A program made the position numbers and the translations under genes. Shown in pieces: positions 8,333-41,852 of a stretch of 64,000 nucleotides of DNA. This DNA is from a virus (lineage: Duplodnaviria; Heunggongvirae; Uroviricota; Caudoviricetes): positions 26,050 to 90,049 of IMG/VR virus record IMGVR_UViG_3300006139_000005. One strand, 5' to 3'. How positions within the stretch are numbered: position 1 is the stretch's first letter; each line of letters starts with the position of its first letter. The notes under the pieces were generated by a model. That model saw nothing but the letters and a program-made list of their open reading frames with translations. It was not told where the DNA came from and searched no databases.

Positions 8333-9094
8333 ATGAAAGAATACATGATCGACGACATCCAGGCCATGACGGAGGCGGAGGCCGCTGCTATTGCGCTGGA
8401 AACGCTGGATGTAAAAGGACATACGATTTACTTGGTGGACTTCGGCGGCTACTTCGGATATAGCTGTCTGGTGTTCAAGAACGGACATCACATCTACTAT
8501 GCGAACGACTACGAGTTGCATCACAAGTGGAGAAAAGCGACACAGGAGCAGTTGCGGGAGGTGTATTTGCAGAAGATGCAGGACATTCTCTTTACACCGA
8601 AGGAGATTGCCGCTCCCCTATCGGACTATACCGACTACCATCGCCGTGAGTATTATCTGCGGAACTACTACGGGATGCAGGAGGATCACATCTCCATGTT
8701 CTGCGCTGGCGGTGGTACGGAACAGGAGCGAGCGGAACGGAAGAAAGAGATCGACAAGATGATTTTCAACCCTATCTGTTTCGCCTACTATACCAACGCC
8801 GAGTTTGTGCAGGAACACAATGCGCTTTTCGAGTTGCTGGAAGCGGTGCGGAACGCTGTAGATGACAATTTTGACTATTGGAAATCCGCTTTTAAGTACG
8901 AGATGGCAAACCATGAGTACGCAATCAACTGGCAGGCGGACTATGATACCCTGGGGGCGTTTGGAAACATCCAGTATCACGGCCACGATGATAACGAGGT
9001 TGACCAGTATTTTGATGAGCTGAATTTTACGGAGACACAAAGAAAAGCGTACTGGGCCGCAAGACGGGAGTATATGCGGGAAGCCAACTATTAA
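8333..9094 (+). CDS. hypothetical protein
   Basis: GGAGG RBS 7 nt before ATG 8333; 253 aa. Confidence 0.55.
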   Translation: MKEYMIDDIQAMTEAEAAAIALETLDVKGHTIYLVDFGGYFGYSCLVFKNGHHIYYANDYELHHKWRKATQEQLREVYLQKMQDILFTPKEIAAPLSDYTDYHRREYYLRNYYGMQEDHISMFCAGGGTEQERAERKKEIDKMIFNPICFAYYTNAEFVQEHNALFELLEAVRNAVDDNFDYWKSAFKYEMANHEYAINWQADYDTLGAFGNIQYHGHDDNEVDQYFDELNFTETQRKAYWAARREYMREANY

Positions 9095-31362: not shown

Positions 31363-31530
31363 TTGCCGGTATTCATTTTCTTGGTCTTTGCGTTTGCGGC
31401 TGTGCTGTGGGTGCTGCTATCTTTCGCATTCAAACCGCTCGGCAAGTTTGTTGGACGGCTAATCAAGGATGCAAAGGACGCAATGGACGAGGAAGATCCA
31501 AGCGATGAAGACACAGCAAATAAACATTGA
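31363..31530 (+). CDS. small membrane protein (TTG start)
   Basis: G7 tract as SD; LPVFIFLVFAFAAVLWVLLSFAF helix then acidic tail; directly upstream of the SPFH gene. Confidence 0.25.
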   Translation: MPVFIFLVFAFAAVLWVLLSFAFKPLGKFVGRLIKDAKDAMDEEDPSDEDTANKH

Positions 31531-31547
31531 CGGAGGTAAAATACACA

Positions 31548-32480
31548 ATGAGAAGAAAAGGTTTCATCGGAGCAATCGTCCTTGCAATCGCAATCTTTGG
31601 AAGTATCATTTTGGCACTGTTCTGTACCAGTCGTGTTCCGGCAGGGTATGTCGGCGTCGTCTACAACATGAACGGCGGCGTTGACGGTGAGGTTCTTTCC
31701 CAAGGTTGGCATCTGGTCGCACCTACCAAGAAAGTCACGACATACTCAATCGGTATTGAGCAAAGCTATCTGACCTCTGACGAAAAGGGCGACAGCAAGA
31801 CCGATGAGAGCTTCAGTATCCCTACTTCTGACGGCAAAACGGTTCGGGTAAATTTGGAGTTCTCCTATCGTTTCGATGAGGCACGAGTGGCTGAAACATT
31901 CGTAACATTCAAAGGAAAGTCCGGCGAAGAGATCAAGGACACATTTATCAAGCCCAAGATTATCGCATGGACTCAGGAGGTCAGTGCTAACTATCCTGTT
32001 ACAGACATCTTTGGCGATCAGCGTACCACTATCAATGCAGAGCTTGATCTTTACCTCAAGGAGAAGTTCGATAAGTATGGCATTATTATTGACACGGTGA
32101 ACTTCACCGACATCTCTGTGGATGCTGAGACTGCTGCGGCGATCCAAAAGAAAGTAACCGCCCAGCAGGAGCTTGAACTTGCGAATATTGAGGCGCAGAC
32201 TGCTAAGATTCAGGCCAACAAAGATAAGGAAGTTGCCATGATCCAGGCGGAGAAGGACAAGGAAGCCGCAGAGATTCAAGCGCAGACAGCATTGGTTAAG
32301 GCAAATGCAGATGCTGAGGTGTTGCGGATTGCTGCCGAAGCTGAGGCAGAGGCAAACAGAGTGATTGCCGCCTCCCTTACTTCTGAGTTGATTGAGAAGA
32401 TTAAGTATGAGCAGTGGGATGGTAAGATGCCTACCGTATCCGGTTCTGGCTCCATTGTCACCATCCCAGGCGTGAATTGA
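31548..32480 (+). CDS. SPFH/band-7 (stomatin/HflK-like) membrane protein
   Basis: N-terminal TM helix, SPFH core, C-terminal EAQTAKIQANKDKE...AEAEAEANR coiled coil. Confidence 0.75.
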   Translation: MRRKGFIGAIVLAIAIFGSIILALFCTSRVPAGYVGVVYNMNGGVDGEVLSQGWHLVAPTKKVTTYSIGIEQSYLTSDEKGDSKTDESFSIPTSDGKTVRVNLEFSYRFDEARVAETFVTFKGKSGEEIKDTFIKPKIIAWTQEVSANYPVTDIFGDQRTTINAELDLYLKEKFDKYGIIIDTVNFTDISVDAETAAAIQKKVTAQQELELANIEAQTAKIQANKDKEVAMIQAEKDKEAAEIQAQTALVKANADAEVLRIAAEAEAEANRVIAASLTSELIEKIKYEQWDGKMPTVSGSGSIVTIPGVN

Positions 32481-32491
32481 GGAGGAACGAT

Positions 32492-32794
32492 ATGGCGTTC
32501 AACAACAAGAAAACCAATACGGCGTCCCGTGACATTTTGCGGGAGAAGCAGCAGGAGGTTGATCGGCTTGCGCAGCAGGCGGATGATGCTGTCGAGCTTG
32601 TGACACGCGCTATCAATCGTCTGGAGCTTATCAATCAACAGATTGACGACGCTATGGGAGAGATTGACACCTATACGGCTGATCTGGCGAAGACGCGAGA
32701 AGCTATGTCCAAACAGCGCCAGGGAAATGCGGCTATCATCAATAATTTCACCAAGCTCCTAAGTACAGAGGACTCCGGCTCAATTTCTGAATAA
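32492..32794 (+). CDS. coiled-coil hypothetical protein
   Basis: GAGGAGG RBS; 100 aa. Confidence 0.5.
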   Translation: MAFNNKKTNTASRDILREKQQEVDRLAQQADDAVELVTRAINRLELINQQIDDAMGEIDTYTADLAKTREAMSKQRQGNAAIINNFTKLLSTEDSGSISE

Positions 32795-32899
32795 AAGAGC
32801 CATTTGGTTTGAGACGCTAACAGCAACTTTAACAAAACAATGAACATTTAATTCATCACGTTAAAATGCGTCTCGTGGTGGTTAGCAACCGCCGAATAT

Positions 32900-32989
32900 G
32901 GAGTGGTAAGTCTAATGGTAAGACAGCGGTTTGCTAAACCGTCAGTAGCCCGAAAGGGTGTGTGGGTTCGAGTCCCACCCACTCCGCCA
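32900..32989 (+). tRNA. tRNA-Ser (anticodon GCU), CCA encoded
   Basis: acceptor GGAGTGG/CCACTCC, anticodon loop TTGCTAA, long variable arm, T-arm GTGGGTTCGAGTCCCAC. Confidence 0.8.
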
Positions 32990-33524
32990 GCCGTGTGGTG
33001 AGCGGCATTGCGTACATTGCAAACCCCTTTCTTGACGGTGGGAAAAGACCACTACTGCCGTGTAAGTGCGGCAATATGGGAACGTCCGGTGGTCAGGCCA
33101 ATCTGTGTAATGGGTGGCGGACACATACAGCAATCTTCATTATAAAAAAGACTTGAAATCTTTTCCTTGGCGGTTCAACTCCGCCAGTTCCCACAATAGC
33201 CACCATACTGATTCTTAGGAAGGAGGTACGTGCCATGAATAGAGCACGTGACCAGACCATTTAAGAAGTCGTATCTGTAAATGTAGAACGGCTGCAACAA
33301 GTGGGGCGATGCCCCACAAGGTTTCAAAATGTGAGCCGCCCACATGAGTGCGGCAGAATCGGAACGCAGTTGAGGAGGCTCTGCAATGAATAAAGCACGA
33401 GACAAGCCCTAAGTTCGCATCCAAACAGAAATATATTTGACCGGCTCCTTTGAAATATGAAACTATGGGACGCTAACAGCAAGTCATTCTGAAATTTTAA
33501 GAAACAACAATGCGTCCCGAATAT

Positions 33525-33638
33525 GCGGAGATAGCTCAGTCGGTAGAGCGATGGTATAAAATGTGGAACATTTCGTTCTCACTAACAGCAAGGTTAAATG
33601 GAGGCTATGTGTCGTAGGTTCGAGTCCTACTCTCCGCA
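33525..33638 (+). tRNA. tRNA-like gene with about 45-nt insert in the anticodon loop (isotype not assignable)
   Basis: acceptor GCGGAGA/TCTCCGC, D-arm GCTCAGTCGGTAGAGC, T-arm GTAGGTTCGAGTCCTAC; insert ATAAAATGTGGAACATTTCGTTCTCACTAACAGCAAGGTTAAA; no CCA. Confidence 0.5.
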
Positions 33639-33851
33639 TCAGACTCCTTTGTTTTCCGGTATCCTTTCGAGTCGCTAAGAAACAAGCCGGCGTGGTTGCG
33701 GACGAAAAGGCGCAAGTGGATTCCGTTCCCACCGAGAAGCGGATAGGGGCAGGGCTTTGGGTACGCTTATGTCTGTTCTGAAATCAAGCGCCAGATAATC
33801 AGCCCAAATATCTTGAACTGGGTTGTGACAGCTTGGAAAGACAAGCAAAAC

Positions 33852-33966
33852 GTCAGGGTAGCTCAGTGGATAGAGCACGTATCAATGCGTATCTTATGAA
33901 ACGCGCACAGCAATGTTTTAAGGAATTTTAATCCCGTGGTCGTGGGTTCGAGTCCCACCCCTGGCA
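33852..33966 (+). tRNA. tRNA-like gene with long insert between D-arm and T-arm
   Basis: acceptor GTCAGGG/CCCTGGC (one G-U), D-arm GCTCAGTGGATAGAGC, T-arm GTGGGTTCGAGTCCCAC; insert contains CACAGCAATG; anticodon stem unresolved. Confidence 0.4.
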
Positions 33967-33971
33967 TCTAT

Positions 33972-34089
33972 GCGGTAGTGGTGAAGTGGTTAAACACAGC
34001 GGTCAATAAAATGTGAAATGTTATAGTTTCACTAACAGCAAGGTAAAAAGCCAAACCGCCAATCGTAGGTTCAAATCCTACCTGCCGTA
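33972..34089 (+). tRNA. tRNA-like gene with about 44-nt insert in the anticodon loop
   Basis: acceptor GCGGTAG/CTGCCGT, anticodon stem GCGGT/ACCGC, T-arm GTAGGTTCAAATCCTAC; insert ATAAAATGTGAAATGTTATAGTTTCACTAACAGCAAGGTAAAA homologous to that in 33525-33638. Confidence 0.5.
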
Positions 34090-34240
34090 CAATATAGGGG
34101 AACGTAAACCATCGTCTCCTCCCACCCTATTTAACGATAAAATGGTGACAGCTCGGAGAGACGGGCACATCTCTGAACACGTACAGCAAAAGTAGTTAAG
34201 GTGTTCCAGGTATCTCAAAATTTATTAGGAGGTAAGAGAA

Positions 34241-35800
34241 ATGAGCAACTTTATGGATGGTGTCAAGGATACACTCGTCAATGGATCTGACAATGTATCC
34301 GTAACCGAAAATGGAGCAGTTGGCTACCGTACCACGGGGCGTTCCCTGCTGGATCTCAACTTTGCGGTCGCATCTCTCCGCAATGCTTCGGAGCAGGATA
34401 TCTCCAAGCGTTTCATCAAGGCGTTCTTTGAGGATAAGGTGACGGCTATGAAGTGGCTATTCTTCGCCCGCGATGTGCGTGGTGGACTTGGTGAGCGGCG
34501 GCTGTTCCGTGCCTGCATGGTGCCGATGGCGAATGACTTCCCTGAGTATGTCGCCCCGGTTTTATCTCTGGTGCCTGAGTATGGCCGCTGGGACGATCTC
34601 TGGTGTCTGCTGGATACTCCGTTGGCCGACAAGGTGATTGAGTTGGTAGGCACTCAACTCCACGATGATATGCGTGGCTACAAGGAGAAGAAGCCTGTCT
34701 CTCTGCTCGCAAAGTGGATGCCCAGATGTAAGACATCTTCCAAGCAGACCCGCAGATATGGACAGCTTTTGCGGAGTGGTCTGAATATGACGGAGCGTGA
34801 TTATCAGCACACGCTGGCGGATTTGTCCCGCTATCTGGTCGTGGTTGAGCAGCAGATGTCTTCTCAGACGTGGGATGGAATTGACTATCAGCGTGTCCCC
34901 TCCCGTGCTAACCTGATCTACAACGATGCTTTTCTCCGCCATGACACTGAGCGGCGGCGTGAGTTTTTGGAGCGTGTGGAGAGCGGCGACGCCAAGATTA
35001 ACGCCGGCACGCTGTTCCCTCACGATATCGTGAACAAGTACCGCCGTACAAACAGTGTAGATGCTACGCTGGAGGCTCTTTGGAGTAACTTGCCGGATAC
35101 CGTGCAGGGTTGCGGCAACACGATTGTTGTCCAGGACGACAGCGGGAGCATGACATGGGTAACGCTCCCCGGTAGCACGGCCCGCCCCTTGGAGGTAGCG
35201 AACGCACTCGCAATCTATTTTGCCGAGCGTTCTTCTGGTCAGTTCAAAGATCAGTATATCACTTTCTCTGATCGCCCAGAGCTGATTGACTTGTCAAATG
35301 GCAAGAACCTCTATGAGCGGTTGAGAATCGTCCATGAGTGCCACGCTGGAGCAAACACCAATGTGGAGGCCGTCTTTGACCTCATCTTGAACACGGCAAT
35401 CTCCAAGCACATGGATCAGAGCGAACTTCCCGCCAATGTGCTTATCATTTCCGACATGGAGTTTGACTCCTGCGCCAGCTGTGGAGCGCCGTCCAGAGAT
35501 CGCTGGGGGTACAACACAAGCAGACCGAGCGCCAGACTGTTCGACGAGATCAAGCGGAAGTACGAACAGGCTGGATACAAGATGCCTCGTTTGGTGTTCT
35601 GGAATGTTGCCAGCCGTAGCGAGACGATTCCTGTCAAGGAGAACGATATGGGCGTTGCTCTGGTCAGCGGCTTCTCTGTCAATATCGCCAAGATGGTGAT
35701 GAGCGGCAAGCTCGATCCCTACGAGTGCTTGCTTGAGACTTTGAACACGGAGCGATACCAGCCCATTGAGGACGCATTGCGCCATGTTGTTGGCGAATAA
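34241..35800 (+). CDS. TROVE-like helical domain plus C-terminal vWA domain protein (Ro60/Rsr-like, DUF2828-like)
   Basis: MIDAS motif VVQDDSGSMT and downstream LIISDME; about 300-aa helical N-terminal region; 519 aa. Confidence 0.5.
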   Translation: MSNFMDGVKDTLVNGSDNVSVTENGAVGYRTTGRSLLDLNFAVASLRNASEQDISKRFIKAFFEDKVTAMKWLFFARDVRGGLGERRLFRACMVPMANDFPEYVAPVLSLVPEYGRWDDLWCLLDTPLADKVIELVGTQLHDDMRGYKEKKPVSLLAKWMPRCKTSSKQTRRYGQLLRSGLNMTERDYQHTLADLSRYLVVVEQQMSSQTWDGIDYQRVPSRANLIYNDAFLRHDTERRREFLERVESGDAKINAGTLFPHDIVNKYRRTNSVDATLEALWSNLPDTVQGCGNTIVVQDDSGSMTWVTLPGSTARPLEVANALAIYFAERSSGQFKDQYITFSDRPELIDLSNGKNLYERLRIVHECHAGANTNVEAVFDLILNTAISKHMDQSELPANVLIISDMEFDSCASCGAPSRDRWGYNTSRPSARLFDEIKRKYEQAGYKMPRLVFWNVASRSETIPVKENDMGVALVSGFSVNIAKMVMSGKLDPYECLLETLNTERYQPIEDALRHVVGE

Positions 35801-35872: not shown

Positions 35873-35891
35873 ACAGAGAGGAGTGCAATTC

Positions 35892-37010
35892 GTGATTTAC
35901 TTAGACCACGCAGCAACGACACCTATGTTTCCAGAGGTTCTGGAGGCTATGCTTCCCTGGTTCCAACCAGATCATGTTGGCAACGCAAGCAGTATCCACA
36001 CGCAAGGAGTAAACGCTTTTCGAGCCATTGAAGATGCTCGTGAAAAGGTTGCCAAAATGATTAACGCCGATGTCTCTGAAATTTTCTTTACGTCAGGCGG
36101 TACAGAATCTAATAACACATTCGCCAGCCATATCCTTGGCGAGAGGGTCATCACAACTCCCTTGGAGCATCATTCCGTTACGCATCCGCTTGAGAGATGG
36201 GCACATGAGGTGTCCTATGTAAAGAATTTGCCCGATGGTAGCGTGGATTTGGAAGATTTGAGCCGCCTGTTAAATCTCTGTTGTCACAAAGCGGTTTCTG
36301 TAATGTGGATCAACAATGAGATTGGTACAATCAATCCGGTTGAGGAAATTGCAGAGCTTTGTAAAAAGCACAGTATACTCCTTCATGTGGACGCTGTGCA
36401 GGCGGCAGGCCATATACCTATCGACGTGAAGAAGTGCGGAGTGGATTTCCTCTCCATGTCCGGGCACAAGTTTGGCGCACCGTTTGGTGTCGGAGTGTTT
36501 TATGTGCGTAGTGGAGTCCAGAAAGAATCTCTGATTAGCGGAGGAGGTCAGGAGCACGGTATAAGAGCCGGCACCTATAATGTGCCTGGTATCGTGGGGC
36601 TTGGTAAGGCCGCTGAAATCATCACAAGTCGGCTCCCCAGACAAATCGAAAAGTGGAACACGCAGGAATATGTTTTGCTGAAAGAACTGGACAAGGTGAT
36701 GCCAGGAGAATACAAGCAAAACGCCGCTGCAAAAAGGACACACAACATTATCAGTCTGACCATTCCCAGTGTAAATAGCGAGGCTCTGTTGCTTTTGCTG
36801 GATCAGAAAGAAATTTATCTTTCTGCTGGTTCCGCTTGCAGTGCATCGGATGCAAGTTTGTCTCATGTCCTGAAAGGAATTGGGTTATCAGATGAAGATG
36901 CTGCATCAACCGTTCGTATTTCGTTGGGATATGAAAACACGGCGGACGAAATGGTGGAAACGGCCCAGGCCATTGCAGAGGTGGCACACAAGCTAAAGGC
37001 TATGTATTGA
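35892..37010 (+). CDS. cysteine desulfurase (NifS/IscS-like class V aminotransferase)
   Basis: LDHAATTP start; PLP-lysine motif SMSGHKFGAPFG; SAGSACS active-site Cys loop; GTG start with GAGGAG RBS. Confidence 0.8.
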   Translation: MIYLDHAATTPMFPEVLEAMLPWFQPDHVGNASSIHTQGVNAFRAIEDAREKVAKMINADVSEIFFTSGGTESNNTFASHILGERVITTPLEHHSVTHPLERWAHEVSYVKNLPDGSVDLEDLSRLLNLCCHKAVSVMWINNEIGTINPVEEIAELCKKHSILLHVDAVQAAGHIPIDVKKCGVDFLSMSGHKFGAPFGVGVFYVRSGVQKESLISGGGQEHGIRAGTYNVPGIVGLGKAAEIITSRLPRQIEKWNTQEYVLLKELDKVMPGEYKQNAAAKRTHNIISLTIPSVNSEALLLLLDQKEIYLSAGSACSASDASLSHVLKGIGLSDEDAASTVRISLGYENTADEMVETAQAIAEVAHKLKAMY

Positions 37011-37071: not shown

Positions 37072-38483
37072 ATGTACTGTGCGTATGTTACAAGAATTAA
37101 AAATCTGCGCAAGCACACCAACGCTGATCGGCTGATGTGTGGTGAGTGTTTCGGGAACACGGTAATCGTGGATCTTGGCACCGACCCCAACCAGCTTGGC
37201 GTTTACTTTCCGGTAGACGGAAAACTTGGTGTCGAGTTTGCACAAAAGAATGACCTGTTGCGGCGAAAGGATGAGAACGGAGATCCTGCCGGTGGATATC
37301 TTGATCCTGAGAAACGAAACATCAAAGCCCTGAAACTTCGTGGAGAAAAGAGTGACGGTTTGTTTCTTCCTATTAGCTGTCTGGATGGCTTTACAGACAC
37401 TACACAACTCAAAGAGGGCGACACAATCACAATGCTGAATGGTGTCACAATTTGCGAGAAGTACATTCCAAAGGCCAAACGAGCAGCTGGTGGTGGTCGT
37501 GGCGGGAGCCGTGTCCGCAAGAAGTCTGATCCAATCTCTCCTCTGTTCTTGAAGCACGCAGATACAGAGCAGCTTGCCTACAATTTGTCTGCGTTCCATA
37601 ACGGCGATCTGGTTGAGATTACGCTGAAGATGCACGGCACCAGCCAGCGCACCGGCTATCTTCCCATCCTCAAAGGCTACCAATATAAAAACGGTTTGGA
37701 AAAGCGGCTGTTTGAGAGCGAGAAAACTCCTGATTGGCTCCGCGCCAGAATCAAGAGAACGCCTATCTATGACTGGGGATATGTTACTGGTACGAGGCGG
37801 GTTGTTCTTGACGGTTACGACGGTGGCTTTTATGGAAGCAATTCTTTCCGTGAGCAACACGCAAAGGTCTTTGAAGGGAAGCTCCGCAATGGTGAGGAGG
37901 TCTACTACGAGGTGGTTGGTTTCACCGACGATGGCACACCTATCATGTCTCCTGGAAGCAACGCCAAGATTGGTGATAAGGAGTTTACCAATATGGCTGT
38001 GATCCAACCGGAAAGAAAACAGTTATGGATGAGAGCGGAGTGGCCTCTATCCCTGTGCCGAAGTCCGATCTCTATGTCTACCGCATGACTATGACCAACG
38101 AAGATGGTGATGTGGTGGAGTATTCGCCTGACTTCATGCGTTATCGCTGTGAGCAGATGGGCGTCAAGTGTGTACCTCTCTTCTGCCGCACAATCATTCC
38201 CGATCTTTTCCAACTGCCTGATAATGTGGGTTCTCCCCAGGCGGTGGATGCTGGCGAATATGTAAAGAAGCTGGCTGAGGATTTCTACGATGGCCCTGAC
38301 CCCGTAGGCAAAACCCATGTGCGTGAAGGTGTTGTTTGCCGCATTGTCAATCGCCCAAAGTTTGCTGCTTATAAGCACAAAAATTTCTCTTTCAAGGCTC
38401 TTGAGGGATTGATTAAGGATACTGCTGCTGCACCTGATATGGAAGAGGCACAGGAAGAGGTTGTGGAGGCAACCGATGGATAA
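37072..38483 (+). CDS. ATP-dependent RNA ligase (Rnl2/Rnl5-like, N-terminal OB-like domain), interrupted by a -1 frameshift near 38016
   Basis: nucleotidyltransferase motif I LKMHGTS (KxHG); downstream EGVVCR/YKHKN motifs lie in the overlapping frame 38025-38483. Confidence 0.6.
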
Positions 38484-38787
38484 AGCTGAAATTCTCGGCT
38501 TTATCCAGAACTTCAAAGGCTCTAAGGACGTGTTTCTTAACGGCTGCTGTTATTGGTTTGCTTTCATTTTGCAAGAGCGGTTTGGCGGCAATATGATGTA
38601 CGAGCCTGTGGAAAATCACTTTGTTCAGGAAATCGGTGGACGCCTTTATGATGTGAGTGGAGATGTCACAGAGGAATACACCTCAGAGCATTTAATGTTC
38701 TGGGACGATATGGAGAGTTATGACGCATCCCTTTACCAACGACTTCTCAGAGATTGTGTGAGAAAGGAGGAGTGCCCATATGAATAA
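38476..38787 (+). CDS. hypothetical protein
   Basis: GGAGG RBS; 103 aa. Confidence 0.4.
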   Translation: MDKAEILGFIQNFKGSKDVFLNGCCYWFAFILQERFGGNMMYEPVENHFVQEIGGRLYDVSGDVTEEYTSEHLMFWDDMESYDASLYQRLLRDCVRKEECPYE

Positions 38788-39415
38788 AGACCGCATTATG
38801 AATCGGCTACAGCAGCATTTGGACGCTGTACGAGAATCTGGGCAGGATTGGTTGGGAATTTTCTTACAAGGTTCTCAAAACTACGGCCTGGACTATGAGA
38901 GTAGCGACATTTTCACTCCGTATTACATCCTCAATCCGATTTATGCCGACTTGTTCCAGCCTATTTGGGACGCCAGAGAGGACATTGCTCGCTATAACAA
39001 TTATGCTGGGATGAGCTGTCTTCTTGGTATGGCATTAGAGAAACAGAAAGCAATGGAGCATCCATATCCTGCAACCATTGATAAGATTGAACGGTTTGGC
39101 TACGATCCCAAGCAGCTCCATCACGCTTTGCGGATGCGTGAATTTATGACACGCTACATGGCCGACGAAAAATATTCCGATTGCTTGGTTAGCAAACAAG
39201 CCGATTACCTTGTAGAAGTAAAACGTGGGTGTCACTCTCTGGAAGAAGCGCGTCGGCTTATGCAAGAAGCTGTTGATTCTATGAAAGCTGATAAACAGCA
39301 GTACATGGATACAACTCCTGTTTGCATTAACGAACACGCAAATGAAGTGATGCAGACAGCCACAGTAGAAATTCTTAAACGATGTTTCTTAATGGAACTG
39401 CAAGGAGGAGAGTAG
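38780..39415 (+). CDS. minimal nucleotidyltransferase (Pol-beta superfamily)
   Basis: LQGSQNYGLDYESSDIF = GS-x10-DxD NTase signature; 211 aa. Confidence 0.55.
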   Translation: MNKDRIMNRLQQHLDAVRESGQDWLGIFLQGSQNYGLDYESSDIFTPYYILNPIYADLFQPIWDAREDIARYNNYAGMSCLLGMALEKQKAMEHPYPATIDKIERFGYDPKQLHHALRMREFMTRYMADEKYSDCLVSKQADYLVEVKRGCHSLEEARRLMQEAVDSMKADKQQYMDTTPVCINEHANEVMQTATVEILKRCFLMELQGGE

Positions 39416-39416
39416 T

Positions 39417-40355
39417 TTGAACCTGTCAACGCAATATTTCTTCATGCTGGTTGGACTTCCTGGAAGCGGAAAGTCTTGGTATGCGGAAAACAAATTGTCC
39501 CATGCGGTCATCCACTCCAGCGACGCAATTCGTGAGGAACTTTTGAACAATGTGGATGATCAGAGTCAGCAGGAATTGGTGTTTCAAACTCTTCACGACC
39601 GTGTAATCCGTGATTTGCAAATTGGCTTGAGTGTGGTATATGACGCTACCAATATCAGTTATAAGCGCCGTCGTGTTTTTCTGCAACAGGTGAAAGGACT
39701 GCATATTCCTGGCCTTAAAACCGTCTGTGTTTTTATGGCAACCCCGTATTCTAAATGCGTAGAGAATAACGCCAATCGTGAACGCACTGTGCCTGAGAAT
39801 GTAATTCATCGGATGTATCAGAATATCGACATTCCGATGAAAGCCGAGGGATGGGATGCTATCTGGATCGAAAATGTAGACCCGTTTATTGGCGACATCA
39901 ACTTCTTGCTGAGTCGCCTTGCTGGTATGGAGCACGACAACCCTCACCATGAGTTTACAGTTGGACAGCATATGTTGACGGCCTATGAATATTTCGACAA
40001 GAACTACTCTGATATGGCAAACGATATTCCTCTTGGCCGTGCAGTTGCACTCCATGATATTGGAAAAGAGTTTACAAAGGTTTTCCATGACAGCAAGGGA
40101 AATCCCACAGATATTGCCCACTATTACAACCACGAGCGTGTTGGTGCCTATGAGAGTTTTGCTCACACCGCTGATTTGTTGTCCAAGGATGACCAACTGA
40201 GGGTTGCGCTTTTGATTCGCTGGCATATGGCACCATTCGCTGTGGAAAAGTCAGATCATCCGAGCAAGACCGAGAGAAAGTTTAAGGATTTGCTTGGTGA
40301 AGATATCTGGTCGCAGGTTATGATTTTGCACGATTGTGACCTGCACGCACACTAA
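39417..40355 (+). CDS. polynucleotide kinase (P-loop) fused to HD phosphohydrolase: RNA/DNA end-healing enzyme (HD-Pnk type, domain order kinase then HD)
   Basis: Walker A LVGLPGSGKS at the N-terminus; HD-domain residues NPHHEF...ALHDIGK...H...D at the C-terminus. Confidence 0.7.
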   Translation: MNLSTQYFFMLVGLPGSGKSWYAENKLSHAVIHSSDAIREELLNNVDDQSQQELVFQTLHDRVIRDLQIGLSVVYDATNISYKRRRVFLQQVKGLHIPGLKTVCVFMATPYSKCVENNANRERTVPENVIHRMYQNIDIPMKAEGWDAIWIENVDPFIGDINFLLSRLAGMEHDNPHHEFTVGQHMLTAYEYFDKNYSDMANDIPLGRAVALHDIGKEFTKVFHDSKGNPTDIAHYYNHERVGAYESFAHTADLLSKDDQLRVALLIRWHMAPFAVEKSDHPSKTERKFKDLLGEDIWSQVMILHDCDLHAH

Positions 40356-40894: not shown

Positions 40895-41852
40895 ATGGGG
40901 GAGGTGGACGTTTTGCATAGCAAAGAACAACTGGAAGAGATGCAGCGTCTGCCTCTCTCTCGCAAAATCCAGATTACTACGGCTCGCATTATCGAATGGT
41001 ATCAGCACTACGACGGCCAAGTGTATGTTGCGTTTTCAGGTGGCAAGGATTCAACCGTACTTCTTGACATCGTGAGGCGTATTTACCCAGATGTTCCGGC
41101 TGTATTCTCCGACACTGGGCTTGAGTTCCCAGAGGTTAGAAAGTTCGCTATGAGCCGTGATAATGTGACTGTTGTACGGCCAGAGATGAATTTCCGCAAG
41201 GTTATTGAGGTGTATGGATACCCTCTGATATCAAAGCGAACAGCAGAGACGGTTGAATACGGAAAGAAGCCTGGATCGTATCGTTGGAAGGAGATCCACG
41301 GGGAGGTTATGATGTCGAATGGTAAACCATCGAAATTTAACTGTCAAAAGTGGTGCTACCTATTAGATGCGCCTTTCAAGGTGTCTTCCAAGTGCTGCGA
41401 TATTATGAAGAAGCAGCCAATGAAAAAATACGTTAAAGAGACTGGCCGTTTTCCTATCACTGCAACTATGGCAGTAGAAAGCATATCCAGAGAAGTCGTA
41501 TGGATGCGACAAGGATGCAATGCCTTTAACAATAAATCGCCCATCTCTCAGCCTATGTCGTTCTGGACAGAGAATGATGTACTCGAATATCTTTATACTT
41601 ATCAAATCCCATATGCTTCTGTCTACGGTGAAATCGTTAAAGCTGATGGGGGGGGGGTGGACGACAACAGGAGAGCATCGTACTGGCTGTGTCTTTTGTG
41701 CCTTTGGCGCTCATTTGGAAAAGTCTCCGAACCGCTTCCAGCGTCTAAAAATCACACATCCAAAACTCTGGAACTACTGCATGAAGCCGTGGGAAGAACA
41801 CGGCCTTGGTATGCGAAAAGTGCTTGAGTATATCGGAGTTCAAGTAGAATAA
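40895..41852 (+). CDS. PP-loop ATP pyrophosphatase (TtcA/DndC/PAPS-reductase-like); C-terminal CxxC segment lies in another frame after a G10 tract
   Basis: YVAFSGGKDSTVLLDIV PP-loop; frame switch at 41648-41657 to ...GCVFCAFGAHLEK... (track ORF 41520-41852). Confidence 0.65.

What the first reader, a model, noticed from the sequence alone, without database searches (positions are those of the whole stretch)
32805..34095. Phage tRNA cluster in which tRNA-shaped genes carry conserved ~45-nt insertions in the anticodon loop
Next to a normal tRNA-Ser(GCU) are three genes with intact tRNA acceptor stems, D-arms and canonical T-arms (GTAGGTTCGAGTCCTAC, GTGGGTTCGAGTCCCAC, GTAGGTTCAAATCCTAC). They are 114-118 nt long because 42-48 nt are inserted in or next to the anticodon loop. 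Two inserts are homologous (ATAAAATGTGrAA...TTYCACTAACAGCAAGGTwAAA). In gene 33972 the anticodon stem GCGGT/ACCGC closes around the insert. The heptamer (T)AACAGCAA recurs six times in 1.3 kb. Two of those are in hairpin elements (GRGACGCTAACAGCAA...GCGTCYC; 32811-32874 and 33468-33519) that sit immediately 5' of tRNA-Ser and of the first insert-bearing gene. Another is in a possible degenerate fifth tRNA-like gene (33078-33193). The inserts are far too short for group I introns and no such bacterial or phage tRNA inserts are known to me. They may be mini-introns or insertion elements needing endonuclease cleavage plus the adjacent healing and sealing enzymes. Alternatively they are tRNA-mimic decoys partnered with the adjacent Ro60-like protein.
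Basis: seen in the sequence. Interest (0 to 1): 0.9.

Follow-up and report, generated by a model that had tools for sequence, protein, structure and literature searches.

The report
Ro60-linked tRNA-like RNA cluster in phage
The odd "tRNAs with inserts" are real and belong to a large, apparently undescribed family of small phage RNAs that carry one shared module (a 7-bp helix followed by ACAGCAA) and always sit beside a Ro60-like gene, so they are most likely its RNA partners (Y-RNA analogues), not spliced tRNAs.

Summary
Rfam's tRNA model finds tRNA-Ser(GCU) plus three 114-118-nt tRNA-like genes. ACAGCAA occurs seven times on the + strand within 1.4 kb, where about 0.1 is expected.

The anatomy needs correcting. 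The insert always lies 5' of the anticodon nucleotides, not inside a normal loop. It is a covarying 7-bp hairpin, then 2 nt, then ACAGCAA.

The same module occurs as free-standing stem-loops (three in the window) and in a fourth, degenerate tRNA-like gene.

Across 75 related phage loci, 70 carry the motif within 1.6 kb upstream of, and on the same strand as, a DUF2828 gene. This is the only gene shared by all loci. Its predicted fold best matches Ro60 structures.

A motif-only scan of bacterial genomes recovered DUF2828 genes in 29 of 120 hits.

Among orthologues, anticodon triplets vary while the tRNA bodies stay conserved. No consistent splice solution or BHB (bulge-helix-bulge) motif exists. 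RNA ligase and kinase genes are not conserved neighbours.

Best reading (about 0.6): these are Y-RNA-like partners of a Ro60-like protein, some built on unpermuted tRNA scaffolds that display anticodon loops. The mini-intron idea is unlikely. This is a new variant of a known kind. RNA-protein binding is inferred, not shown.

The parts
32810..32875 (+). Free-standing Y-like stem-loop (unit A). The closing stem is TGAGACGC/GCGTCTCG, followed by TA and then ACAGCAA (32820-32826). The loop holds an anticodon-arm-like hairpin, ATGAA-CATTTAA-TTCAT.
   Evidence: Sequence. The minimum-free-energy fold contains both helices. It belongs to the free-standing family, which has a covarying 7-bp closing stem.
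32900..32989 (+). Ordinary tRNA-Ser(GCU). It is a neighbour inside the cluster and carries no module.
   Evidence: ARAGORN. Rfam tRNA 57.7 bits.
33078..33193 (+). Fourth, degenerate tRNA-like gene ('type D'). Acceptor GGGAAC/GTTCCC; no clear D-arm; hairpin followed by ACAGCAA (33127-33133); anticodon-arm-like hairpin AAAAGA-CTTGAAA-TCTTTT (33146-33164); T-arm GGCGG-TTCAACT-CCGCC.
   Evidence: Rfam tRNA 20.3 bits on 33119-33193. Model R1 16.3 bits, E = 0.04. Fold. Orthologues with the same layout in L002, L012, L015, L018, L019 and L051.
33467..33517 (+). Free-standing Y-like stem-loop (unit B). Stem GGGACGC/GCGTCCC, then TA, then ACAGCAA (33476-33482). The loop contains ATTTTAA.
   Evidence: Sequence. 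Fold. Family membership.
33525..33638 (+). tRNA-like gene, type A. Anticodon stem ATGGT/GCTAT encloses: linker ATAAAAT; hairpin GTGGAAC..GTTCTCAC; TA; ACAGCAA (33585-33591); linker; and the last loop nucleotides TGGAG (Pro-like; NGG-G-A in orthologues).
   Evidence: Rfam tRNA 51.6 bits. R1 22.0 bits. Anatomy and orthologues.
33852..33966 (+). tRNA-like gene, type B. The outer anticodon-stem pairs (CG) come first. Then the insert: hairpin TGCGT..ACGCG, then C, then ACAGCAA (33907-33913). Then the inner pairs GGA, the 7-nt loop ATTTTAA (UUU, Lys-like) and TCC-CG.
   Evidence: Rfam tRNA 43.4 bits. R1 33.9 bits. The split-stem layout and its covariation (CG/CG, CT/AG, ACG/CGT) across orthologues. 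The anticodon varies among orthologues.
33972..34089 (+). tRNA-like gene, type C. Anticodon stem GCGGT/ACCGC encloses: linker; hairpin GTGAAAT..GTTTCAC; TA; ACAGCAA (34035-34041); linker; and GCCAA (Gly-like; NCC-A-A in orthologues).
   Evidence: Rfam tRNA 47.2 bits. R1 28.2 bits. Fold z = -3.4. Orthologues.
34175..34206 (+). Short free-standing module in the leader of the Ro60-like gene. Stem GAACAC/GTGTTC, then GT, then ACAGCAA (34183-34189), within a 20-nt loop. It lies 58 nt before the ATG.
   Evidence: Sequence. Fold. A module at -55 to -117 from the start codon is seen in nearly all loci examined.
34241..35800 (+). Gene for a 519-aa Ro60-like protein (alpha-helical-repeat ring plus vWA domain with an invariant DxSxS MIDAS motif; Pfam DUF2828 + DUF7788). 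It is the inferred protein partner of the RNAs.
   Evidence: Pfam. PHROG 850 'RNA-binding protein'. Invariant D299/S301/S303. AF2 model, pLDDT 77. The best full-length PDB matches are Ro60 of Thermus phage phiLo, D. radiodurans Rsr and vertebrate Ro60.
37072..40355 (+). Local context only: RNA-ligase-like ORFs (37072-38088 and 38025-38483), a possible nucleotidyltransferase (38780-39415) and a polynucleotide-kinase-like ORF (39417-40355). These are not conserved partners of the RNA cluster.
   Evidence: PHROG/Pfam hits. Found next to the Ro60-like gene in only 16-19 of 75 loci.

Best explanation
**What it is.** The 1.4-kb non-coding stretch (32810-34206) encodes a battery of seven small RNAs or RNA modules. 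I infer that they are the RNA partners of the Ro60-like (DUF2828, ring + vWA) protein encoded immediately downstream. That would make them functional analogues of Y RNAs.

**The shared module.** It is a 7-bp helix of free sequence, then 1-2 nt, then single-stranded ACAGCAA, usually followed by U-rich sequence. It comes in two topologies that present the same junction:
- (a) The helix partner lies downstream, giving a '5'-3' stem closing a large loop that starts with the motif'. This is the classic Y-RNA layout. There are three copies in the window.
- (b) The helix is a short hairpin just upstream of the motif, and the whole module is inserted into the anticodon arm of a tRNA-like scaffold, 5' of the anticodon nucleotides. 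There are three good copies and one degenerate copy.

**Inferred mechanism.**
1. The cluster is transcribed with or ahead of the gene.
2. The tRNA-like bodies are released by the tRNA-end-processing machinery. Some orthologues encode CCA.
3. The Ro60-like protein binds the helix-ACAGCAA module.
4. The attached tRNA body or anticodon stem-loop is the effector end. It engages tRNA-recognising proteins such as host anticodon nucleases or tRNA repair and processing enzymes.
5. The copy in the gene's own leader may give feedback control.

**Shown versus inferred.**
- Shown: the RNA structures, their conservation, their exclusive linkage to the gene, and the Ro60-like fold.
- Inferred: RNA-protein binding, processing and the effector role.
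For: 1. **The tRNA-like bodies are real.** Rfam tRNA scores 43-52 bits against a cut-off of 29.
2. **The module hairpin covaries.**
   - Seed set: 94.6% of cells paired, all 7 pairs with double changes, slid controls 23-48%.
   - 128 model hits, 60 distinct: 92.9% paired, 129 double-change cells.
3. **The free-standing closing stem is real.** 71 of 93 units have a partner of at least 7 contiguous bp within 75 nt, against 13 of 93 for a displaced control. Covariation is seen at 7 pairs.
4. **Linkage to the gene.**
   - ACAGCAA on the gene's strand: 198 copies in the 500 nt before the start codon across 75 loci, against roughly 1-8 per bin within and downstream of the gene.
   - 70 of 75 loci have at least one copy within 1.6 kb upstream; the median is 4.
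   - All 128 R1 hits are on the gene's strand.
   - In the window the structured motif is confined to this region.
5. **Independent test.** A motif-only scan of 596 Gb of genomes returned 120 stretches. 29 of them carry a DUF2828 gene within 8 kb; in 28 of the 29 the motif is commoner on that gene's strand.
6. **Only this gene is shared.** The Ro60-like gene is the only gene common to all loci.
7. **Protein fold.** The three best PDB matches, all full length, are Ro60 proteins (E = 2.7e-7 to 6e-5).
8. **Precedent.**
   - Y RNAs lie within 4 kb of Ro60 on the same strand, have a short 5' motif and often a tRNA-like domain (PMC4201824).
Against: - No binding, expression or end-mapping data exist.
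- The motif (ACAGCAA) differs from the known Ro60-binding motifs (GGUCCGA, GNCGAAN0-1G, CGAA).
- Rfam's YrlA model scores only 16.4 bits against a cut-off of 69, and that match spans two adjacent genes.
- The protein is only a remote relative of Ro60: TM-scores are 0.36-0.49, and the sequence-level PDB match is E = 1.9, at the MIDAS motif only. RNA binding by this clade is therefore itself an inference.
- The Gly-like (NCC-A-A) and Pro-like (NGG-G-A) nucleotides kept in types C and A, and the encoded CCA in some orthologues, would also suit a translation-related role.
- Four distant loci with upstream sequence (36-38% protein identity) lack the exact motif.
Confidence: 0.62

Rival explanations
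1. **Protein-dependent mini-introns.** The inserts would be excised by an endonuclease that recognises the hairpin-ACAGCAA signal. The halves would then be healed and sealed by the phage Pnk and Rnl, giving ordinary Pro/Lys/Gly tRNAs.
For: - The bodies are good tRNAs.
- In type B, removing the insert would restore a perfect 5-bp stem and a 7-nt loop.
- In gene 33525-33638, joining AT to TGGAG would give a loop AUUGGAG with U33 (by inspection).
- Some orthologues encode CCA.
- RNA ligase and kinase genes lie 3-5 kb downstream in this phage.
Against: - The insert position slides between 26/27, 28/29, 29/30 and 31-33 in different members.
- No excision gives U33 in gene 33972-34089 or in most type C orthologues.
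- ARAGORN's intron calls are inconsistent.
- BHB motifs are at chance level.
- The module occurs in about 90 distinct free-standing units with no exons to join.
- Anticodons differ among orthologues with 89-100% identical 3' bodies.
- Phages that carry these elements also carry normal tRNAs with the same anticodons (L026, L019).
- The ligase and kinase are absent from most loci examined.
Confidence: 0.07
2. **Working tRNAs with an extra arm.** The RNAs would stay unspliced and still decode. The bulky insert next to the anticodon would make them resistant to host anticodon nucleases.
For: - Canonical acceptor, D and T arms.
- A 7-nt loop with U33 and A37 in type B.
- Gly- and Pro-like anticodon nucleotides conserved in types C and A.
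- Phage tRNAs that evade tRNA-cleaving defence systems are known (my own background knowledge).
Against: - Types A and C have 48-50-nt 'loops', mostly without U33.
- The type B anticodon changes freely (UUU, GUU, GCU, UGU) on a conserved body.
- The inner anticodon helix is only 3 bp in type B.
- Free-standing units show the same module plus an anticodon-arm-like hairpin but have no acceptor or T arm.
- The tight linkage to the Ro60-like gene would be left unexplained.
Confidence: 0.07
3. **Cis-acting RNA signals.** The module would be a processing, stability or translational-operator element of the long leader of the Ro60-like mRNA. It would be recognised by a host factor rather than forming trans-acting RNPs with the encoded protein.
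For: - One module lies 55-117 nt before the start codon in nearly all loci examined.
- No sigma-70-like promoter or intrinsic terminator separates the units on the + strand.
Against: - There is a median of 4 and up to 8 copies per locus, spread over more than 1 kb.
- Many copies are embedded in complete tRNA-like bodies, which would be cut out by tRNA processing.
- In L071 the cluster lies downstream of the gene.
- The motif is kept across hosts as different as Clostridia, Acholeplasmataceae and Treponema MAGs. That fits a phage-encoded reader better than a host one.
Confidence: 0.12

Closest known systems
YrlA-type bacterial and phage Y RNAs (Rfam RF02553) bound by Ro60/Rsr
   Same: - Encoded within a few kb of, and on the same strand as, a Ro60-type ring + vWA protein.
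- Several different RNAs per locus.
- A short conserved single-strand motif next to a stem.
- A tRNA-like module with D and T arms and an acceptor stem.
- In this phage, neighbourhood with RNA repair genes, parallel to the Salmonella rsr-yrlBA-rtcBA operon (PMC4201824, PMC7790460).
   Different: - YrlA is circularly permuted relative to tRNA: its acceptor stem is closed by a loop, its ends form the Ro60-binding stem, and it has no anticodon loop. Here the acceptor ends are free, the protein-binding module is internal, and the anticodon nucleotides or a full anticodon loop are kept.
- The motif is ACAGCAA, not GNCGAAN0-1G.
- The RF02553 score is 16.4 bits against a cut-off of 69.
- The partner protein belongs to DUF2828/DUF7788, not Pfam TROVE.
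Yrl1/Yrl2 of Thermus phage phiLo with phage Ro60 (PDB 9KOP, 9L5Y; PMC12135203)
   Same: - Phage-encoded Ro60-type protein, which is the best structural match of the window protein.
- Small RNAs encoded just upstream of the gene.
- A 5'-3' stem closing a large loop or bulge that holds a short conserved motif. This is exactly the layout of the three free-standing units here.
   Different: - The motif there is CGAA.
- No tRNA-like scaffold or anticodon-arm mimic is reported for those RNAs.
- The protein here shares only about 15% identity with phiLo Ro60.
D. radiodurans Yrn1
   Same: The D-like and T-like arms occur in tRNA order, with a stem-loop in the anticodon-arm position (PMC4201824).
   Different: - In Yrn1 the Ro60-binding stem is formed by the RNA ends, in the acceptor position.
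- Here the acceptor stem is a normal 7-bp tRNA stem, and the conserved module sits in the anticodon arm.
Intron-containing tRNA genes (bacterial group I introns; archaeal and eukaryal BHB introns)
   Same: A tRNA gene is interrupted in the anticodon arm.
   Different: - The inserts are 42-57 nt, far too small for group I introns, and there is no Rfam intron hit.
- They lie 5' of the anticodon at variable positions.
- There is no BHB signal.
- The same sequence module exists outside tRNA genes.

Membership tests
tRNA (functional decoder) | Cloverleaf recognised by the Rfam tRNA covariance model above its gathering score | tested here: met
   43.4-51.6 bits against a cut-off of 29 for the three genes. 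The fourth scores 20.3 bits, below the cut-off.
tRNA (functional decoder) | Continuous 5-bp anticodon stem closing a 7-nt loop with U33 and a purine at position 37 | tested here: not met
   - Gene 33852: the stem's 5' strand is interrupted by 44 nt.
- Genes 33525 and 33972: the loops are 48-50 nt, and A (not U) precedes the anticodon-like triplet.
- ARAGORN in default mode rejects all three.
tRNA (functional decoder) | Anticodon conserved among orthologues | tested here: not met
   Type B orthologues whose 3' bodies are 89-100% identical carry UUU, GUU, GCU, GUU and UGU. Near-identical L019 and L020 copies differ as UGA versus UGU. Types A and C do keep NGG and NCC.
Group I intron in tRNA | Self-splicing intron of roughly 200 nt or more with the group I core (my recalled size criterion; Rfam Intron_gpI) | tested here: not met
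   The inserts are 42-57 nt. No intron family matches at E <= 10 in 32300-34700.
BHB (archaeal/eukaryal-type) tRNA intron | Bulge-helix-bulge motif at the exon-intron junctions, at a consistent position | tested here: not met
   A strict hBHBh' search finds 8 of 41 elements against about 5 expected from shuffled inserts. The positions are scattered and several cut into the variable or T region. ARAGORN's intron positions are inconsistent.
Y RNA (Ro60 partner RNA) | Encoded close to, and on the same strand as, a Ro60-type gene | tested here: met
   - 70 of 75 loci have the motif within 1.6 kb upstream.
- All 128 model hits are on the gene's strand.
- 29 of 120 motif-only genome hits have the gene within 8 kb.
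Y RNA (Ro60 partner RNA) | Partner protein is a Ro60-type ring (helical repeats) plus vWA/MIDAS | tested here: met
   - The top three PDB fold matches are Ro60 proteins over about 500 aligned columns, E = 2.7e-7 to 6e-5.
- The DxSxS motif is invariant.
- There is no significant sequence-level match, and Pfam assigns DUF2828/DUF7788, not TROVE.
Y RNA (Ro60 partner RNA) | Stem formed by the RNA ends, next to a large loop with a short conserved protein-contact motif | tested here: met
   The free-standing units have a covarying 7-bp closing stem with ACAGCAA at the 5' edge of a 20-50-nt loop. In the tRNA-embedded copies the helix is a local hairpin instead.
Y RNA (Ro60 partner RNA) | Known Ro60-binding sequence (GGUCCGA / GNCGAAN0-1G / CGAA) or a match to Rfam YrlA | tested here: not met
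   The conserved motif is ACAGCAA. RF02553 scores 16.4 bits against a cut-off of 69.
Y RNA (Ro60 partner RNA) | Physical binding to the Ro60-type protein | not testable with these tools
   Needs RIP/CLIP or gel-shift experiments.

The most novel reading that the evidence does not exclude
**An 'anticodon display' ribonucleoprotein for the tRNA arms race.** The Ro60-like protein would hold, through the helix-ACAGCAA handle, a set of tRNA-shaped and minimal RNAs. Each would present an anticodon stem-loop whose triplet evolves rapidly (UUU, GUU, GCU, UGU, GUA, GCA, UGA and others).

These RNAs would act as uncleavable or sacrificial decoys, or as sensors, for host anticodon nucleases. In some phages they would also recruit the repair enzymes. 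A competitive-inhibitor role was suggested, without evidence, for YrlA in Salmonella (PMC7790460).

Here the anticodon arm is actually present and hypervariable. If true, this would also give a first RNA-linked function to the DUF2828 family, which extends to eukaryotes.
Probability: 0.25. Interest if true: 0.9.

Novelty: new variant of a known kind. Interest (0 to 1): 0.72.

Why it matters
- **A partner for a domain of unknown function.** DUF2828 is very large: more than 7,900 scored homologues, and by its Pfam description (from memory) it also occurs in eukaryotes. These results give it a concrete, testable RNA partner and recognition motif.
- **A wider Y-RNA concept.** The known tRNA-mimicking Y RNAs are permuted and lack an anticodon loop. 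These are full, unpermuted tRNA scaffolds and mini stem-loops that keep and diversify an anticodon arm. That points to tRNA-targeting conflict as the arena in which Ro60-type RNPs act in phages. It makes the long-standing question 'what does the tRNA-like end of a Y RNA bind?' experimentally approachable.
- **Annotation.** Such genes are missed, or mis-called as intron-containing or suppressor tRNAs, by tRNA finders. ARAGORN's intron mode calls 'tRNA-Stop(tta)' here.

Tried and rejected
- **ARAGORN with intron models**. It detects the genes but assigns contradictory intron positions and anticodons (Glu/Stop/Tyr in the window; His for the same gene in L001). It is not usable as evidence of splicing.
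- **Rfam at E <= 10 over the region**. Nothing matches but tRNA and chance-level hits. The weak YrlA hit spans the 3' half of one gene and the 5' half of the next. This is the dimeric-tRNA false positive that the YrlA authors warn about.
- **BLASTN against 50,697 phage records**. Only the tRNA-Ser matches; no cultured relative was found.
- **Genome-wide promoter reading of the motif.** Rejected, because in the 64-kb window the structured motif occurs only here and the flanking helix covaries.
- **Sigma-70 promoter and terminator scan**. Nothing useful on the + strand.
- **BHB search**. Chance level.
- **Sequence search of the PDB with the protein and with a 24-sequence profile**. No significant hit; only fold comparison showed the Ro60 relationship.
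- **Literature searches for DUF2828, Ro60 + phage, and tRNA-like + Y RNA**. No description of this RNA family was found in the held library.
- **Two micro-ORFs with strong Shine-Dalgarno sites** (33235-33264, 33386-33412). They are not conserved beyond the near-identical contig.
- **Anticodon-arm-like hairpin after the motif.** 53% of modules have one, against 14% when shuffled. The count is inflated by T-arms, so I treat it as supportive only.
Full report

Yes. Rfam's tRNA model (gathering score 29 bits) matches four places in the region:
- 32900-32986, 57.7 bits, the ordinary tRNA-Ser(GCU).
- 33525-33638, 51.6 bits.
- 33852-33966, 43.4 bits.
- 33972-34089, 47.2 bits.

The last three each have 48-55 extra nucleotides where the model expects the anticodon loop. 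ARAGORN in default mode sees only tRNA-Ser.

ACAGCAA occurs seven times on the + strand between 32820 and 34189. From the window-wide shuffles about 0.12 would be expected there.

The inserts are not an assembly artefact. They are present in a 98%-related viral contig and in 55 of 75 related loci.

**2. Corrected anatomy of the inserts**

The insert is never in the middle of a normal anticodon loop. It always lies 5' of the anticodon nucleotides.
- **Gene 33852-33966.** The two outer pairs of the anticodon stem (CG...CG) precede the insert. The three inner pairs (GGA/TCC) and a canonical 7-nt loop (ATTTTAA) follow it. Orthologues show the same split, with covariation of the outer pairs (CG/CG, CT/AG, ACG/CGT).
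- **Genes 33525-33638 and 33972-34089.** The stem is complete (ATGGT/GCTAT and GCGGT/ACCGC). The insert is followed only by the last five loop nucleotides: TGGAG (NGG-G-A in orthologues, Pro-like) and GCCAA (NCC-A-A in orthologues, Gly-like).

The insert itself is modular: an A/U-rich linker, a 7-bp hairpin (often with a GNNA loop), 2 nt, ACAGCAA, then U-rich sequence. The hairpin sequence is free, but its pairing is kept:
- In a gap-free set of 21 sequences, 94.6% of cells pair and all 7 pairs show changes on both sides. Slid controls pair at 23-48%.
- This set was chosen for at least 6 of 7 pairs, so the percentage is biased but the compensatory changes are not.
- A covariance model built from it (R1) finds 128 hits at E <= 0.01 in the 75 loci. 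60 are distinct. They are 92.9% paired, with 129 double-change cells.

**3. The same module outside tRNA bodies**

Here the strand preceding NN-ACAGCAA pairs with a partner 20-50 nt downstream. The motif therefore opens a large loop closed by a 7-9-bp stem. The consensus is (A)AAGRCRC-NN-ACAGCAA ... GYGYCTTG.

- Of 93 distinct units upstream of the gene in the loci, 71 have a contiguous partner of at least 7 bp within 75 nt. A control anchored 13 nt away gives 13 of 93.
- Seven of the stem's pairs covary strongly.
- At the junction both topologies present the same thing: a helix end followed by a 3' single strand, NN-ACAGCAA.
- Many loops, and the tRNA-embedded copies, place an anticodon-arm-like hairpin 8-11 nt after the motif. 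It has 4-5 bp and a 7-nt loop such as CTTTTAA, CTGTTAA, CTGCAAA or CTTGAAA. The statistic is inflated by T-arms, so it is supportive only.
- The 'degenerate fifth tRNA-like gene' (33078-33193) is a conserved fourth type. It has an acceptor stem, no clear D-arm, a hairpin plus ACAGCAA, an anticodon-arm mimic and a T-arm.

**4. What the module is linked to**

The next gene (34241-35800) encodes a DUF2828 + DUF7788 protein, listed as PHROG 850 'RNA-binding protein'.

- Relatives of it were fetched from viral contigs (75 loci, 36-98% identity).
- On the gene's strand, ACAGCAA occurs 198 times in the 500 nt before the start codon and 66 times in the 500 nt before that. That compares with roughly 1-8 per 500-nt bin within and downstream of the gene, and 0-7 per bin on the other strand.
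- 70 of 75 loci have at least one copy within 1.6 kb upstream; the median is 4. One of the five exceptions has no upstream sequence.
- All 128 R1 hits lie on the gene's strand.
- Within the 64-kb window the structured motif is confined to this region, so it is not a general promoter.
- The neighbouring genes are not conserved with the cluster: NifS-like 23, RNA ligase 17, kinase 16 and SPFH 15 of 75 loci.

As an independent test I scanned one genome per prokaryotic species for the RNA motif alone. About 280 chance matches are expected for this pattern in 596 Gb (my estimate). 29 of the 120 stretches carry a DUF2828 gene within 8 kb, and in 28 of the 29 ACAGCAA is commoner on that gene's strand. 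These are mostly gut or rumen Clostridia (Oscillospiraceae, Ruminococcus, Acutalibacteraceae, Christensenellaceae, Lachnospiraceae). A few are Acholeplasmataceae, Treponema and Prevotella MAGs.

**5. What the protein is**

Sequence searches of the PDB found nothing significant. An AlphaFold2 model (35-sequence alignment, pLDDT 77, pTM 0.71) was compared with the PDB. The three best matches, all over roughly the full length, are:
- Ro60 of Thermus phage phiLo (E = 2.7e-7).
- D. radiodurans Rsr (E = 4e-5).
- Vertebrate Ro60 in a La/pre-5S complex (E = 6e-5).

Isolated vWA domains follow. The MIDAS motif DxSxS is invariant in the family. TM-scores are modest (0.36-0.49), so this is a remote Ro60-like protein, not an orthologue.

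**6. Comparison with what is known**

- Bacterial Y RNAs lie within 4 kb of the Ro60 gene on the same strand. They carry a short motif (GNCGAAN0-1G) near the 5' end, and at least one per species has a tRNA-like domain (PMC4201824). In YrlA that domain is permuted: the acceptor stem is closed by a loop and the RNA ends form the Ro60-binding stem.
- For phage phiLo, two RNAs upstream of the Ro60 gene bind the protein. They are described as a 5'-3' stem flanking a large bulge with a CGAA motif (PMC12135203).

The free-standing units here have that layout with a different motif. The tRNA-embedded units resemble YrlA in principle, but they keep normal tRNA topology and keep the anticodon nucleotides. 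Rfam's YrlA model does not recognise them: 16.4 bits against a cut-off of 69, and that hit straddles two genes. I found no description of this RNA family in Rfam 15 or in the searchable literature.

**7. Why not introns or working tRNAs?**

- ARAGORN's intron mode gives incompatible solutions.
- The insert position slides along the 5' side of the anticodon arm among family members.
- No excision restores U33 in gene 33972-34089.
- BHB motifs are at chance level.
- The module occurs without exons (section 3).
- Orthologous type B genes with 89-100% identical 3' bodies carry UUU, GUU, GCU, GUU and UGU.
- Phages with these genes also have ordinary tRNAs with the same anticodons.
- The healing and sealing enzymes are not conserved neighbours.

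Points that keep these rivals alive: removing the type B insert would give a perfect tRNA, types A and C conserve Pro- and Gly-like nucleotides, and some orthologues encode CCA.

**8. Most likely mechanism (inferred)**

1. The cluster is transcribed on the gene's strand. No sigma-70-like promoter or terminator separates the units.
2. The tRNA-like bodies are released by tRNA end-processing.
3. The Ro60-like protein binds the helix-ACAGCAA handle.
4. The tRNA body or anticodon arm engages tRNA-recognising proteins.
5. The copy in the gene's leader may provide feedback.

In this phage the nearby ligase, kinase and nucleotidyltransferase genes parallel the Salmonella rsr-yrlBA-rtcBA operon. For that operon a nuclease-inhibitor role of the tRNA-like domain has been proposed (PMC7790460). 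The fast-changing anticodon triplets make a decoy or sensor role against anticodon nucleases the most interesting untested reading.

**9. Verdict**

This is a real, strongly conserved feature. It is a new RNA family best filed as a new variant of the Y-RNA/Ro60 theme. RNA-protein binding and function remain to be shown.

Noticed in passing
L031:8427-8549, L023:577-741, L033:6764-6913 and 8565-8687, L030:5603-5735 (related loci, not the window): A second, unrelated class of interrupted tRNA genes occurs in the larger relatives. They look like true tRNAs, often with encoded CCA, and carry 47-93-nt inserts right after the anticodon. The inserts contain conserved blocks such as GGGGCAGCACC, GGGCAGGACTTAC and GAGGTCATCACTCG and lack ACAGCAA. 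Rfam sees only the tRNA (e.g. L033 8565-8684, 52 bits). These could be genuine small introns.
   Followed up: partly
window 37072-38088 and 38025-38483: The RNA-ligase homologue is split into two overlapping ORFs in different frames. They match PHROG 968 positions 9-254 and 296-393. The same two pieces are found in 17 related loci. This could be a frameshift, a programmed recoding event or two subunits.
   Followed up: no
window 33852-33966 and orthologues (L002:3548-3665, L012:3692-3806, L015:3586-3703, L068:3170-3287): The anticodon-position triplet of one orthologous tRNA-like gene differs between relatives (UUU, GUU, GCU, GUU, UGU). The 3' body stays 89-100% identical, and the loop keeps T at position 2 and AA at positions 6-7.
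   Followed up: partly
window 33825-33847 and 34145-34167: A 23-nt repeat, GTGACAGCTYGGARAGACRRGCA, forms a 5-bp hairpin with one compensatory change. It sits just upstream of gene 33852 and of the leader unit (family D5). I did not see it in L002.
   Followed up: no
window 33235-33264 and 33386-33412: Two tiny ORFs (MNRARDQTI and MNKARDKP) each follow a strong AGGAGG/GAGGAGG site, inside repeated segments of the spacer (families D4, D6, D8). They are conserved only in the 98%-related contig. They may be remnants of tRNA D-arm sequence rather than genes.
   Followed up: partly
window 35883-37010 and 40895-41827: A class-V aminotransferase (cysteine-desulfurase-like) gene and a PAPS-reductase/PP-loop gene flank the RNA repair genes. 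They could form a thiolation pair acting on tRNA or DNA. The NifS-like gene follows the Ro60-like gene in 23 of 75 loci.
   Followed up: no
window 31527-32794: An SPFH/Band-7 gene and a 105-aa ORF with one sub-threshold Pfam hit (CUX1_N 'tRNA-binding arm', 16.4 bits against a cut-off of 27) lie just upstream of the RNA cluster. They recur near the Ro60-like gene in 15-16 loci, sometimes downstream of it.
   Followed up: no
L071:5694-6250: In this relative the whole RNA cluster (three tRNA-like genes plus free-standing units) lies downstream of the Ro60-like gene instead of upstream, still on the same strand.
   Followed up: no
L065:3420-3540; L018:3504-3622; L037, L042, L047: Motif variants exist (ACTGCAA, ACCGCAA, GCAGCAA, TCAGCAA and others). 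Four distant loci (L060, L061, L066, L067; 36-38% protein identity) show no exact motif. This is possible coevolution of motif and protein clade.
   Followed up: partly
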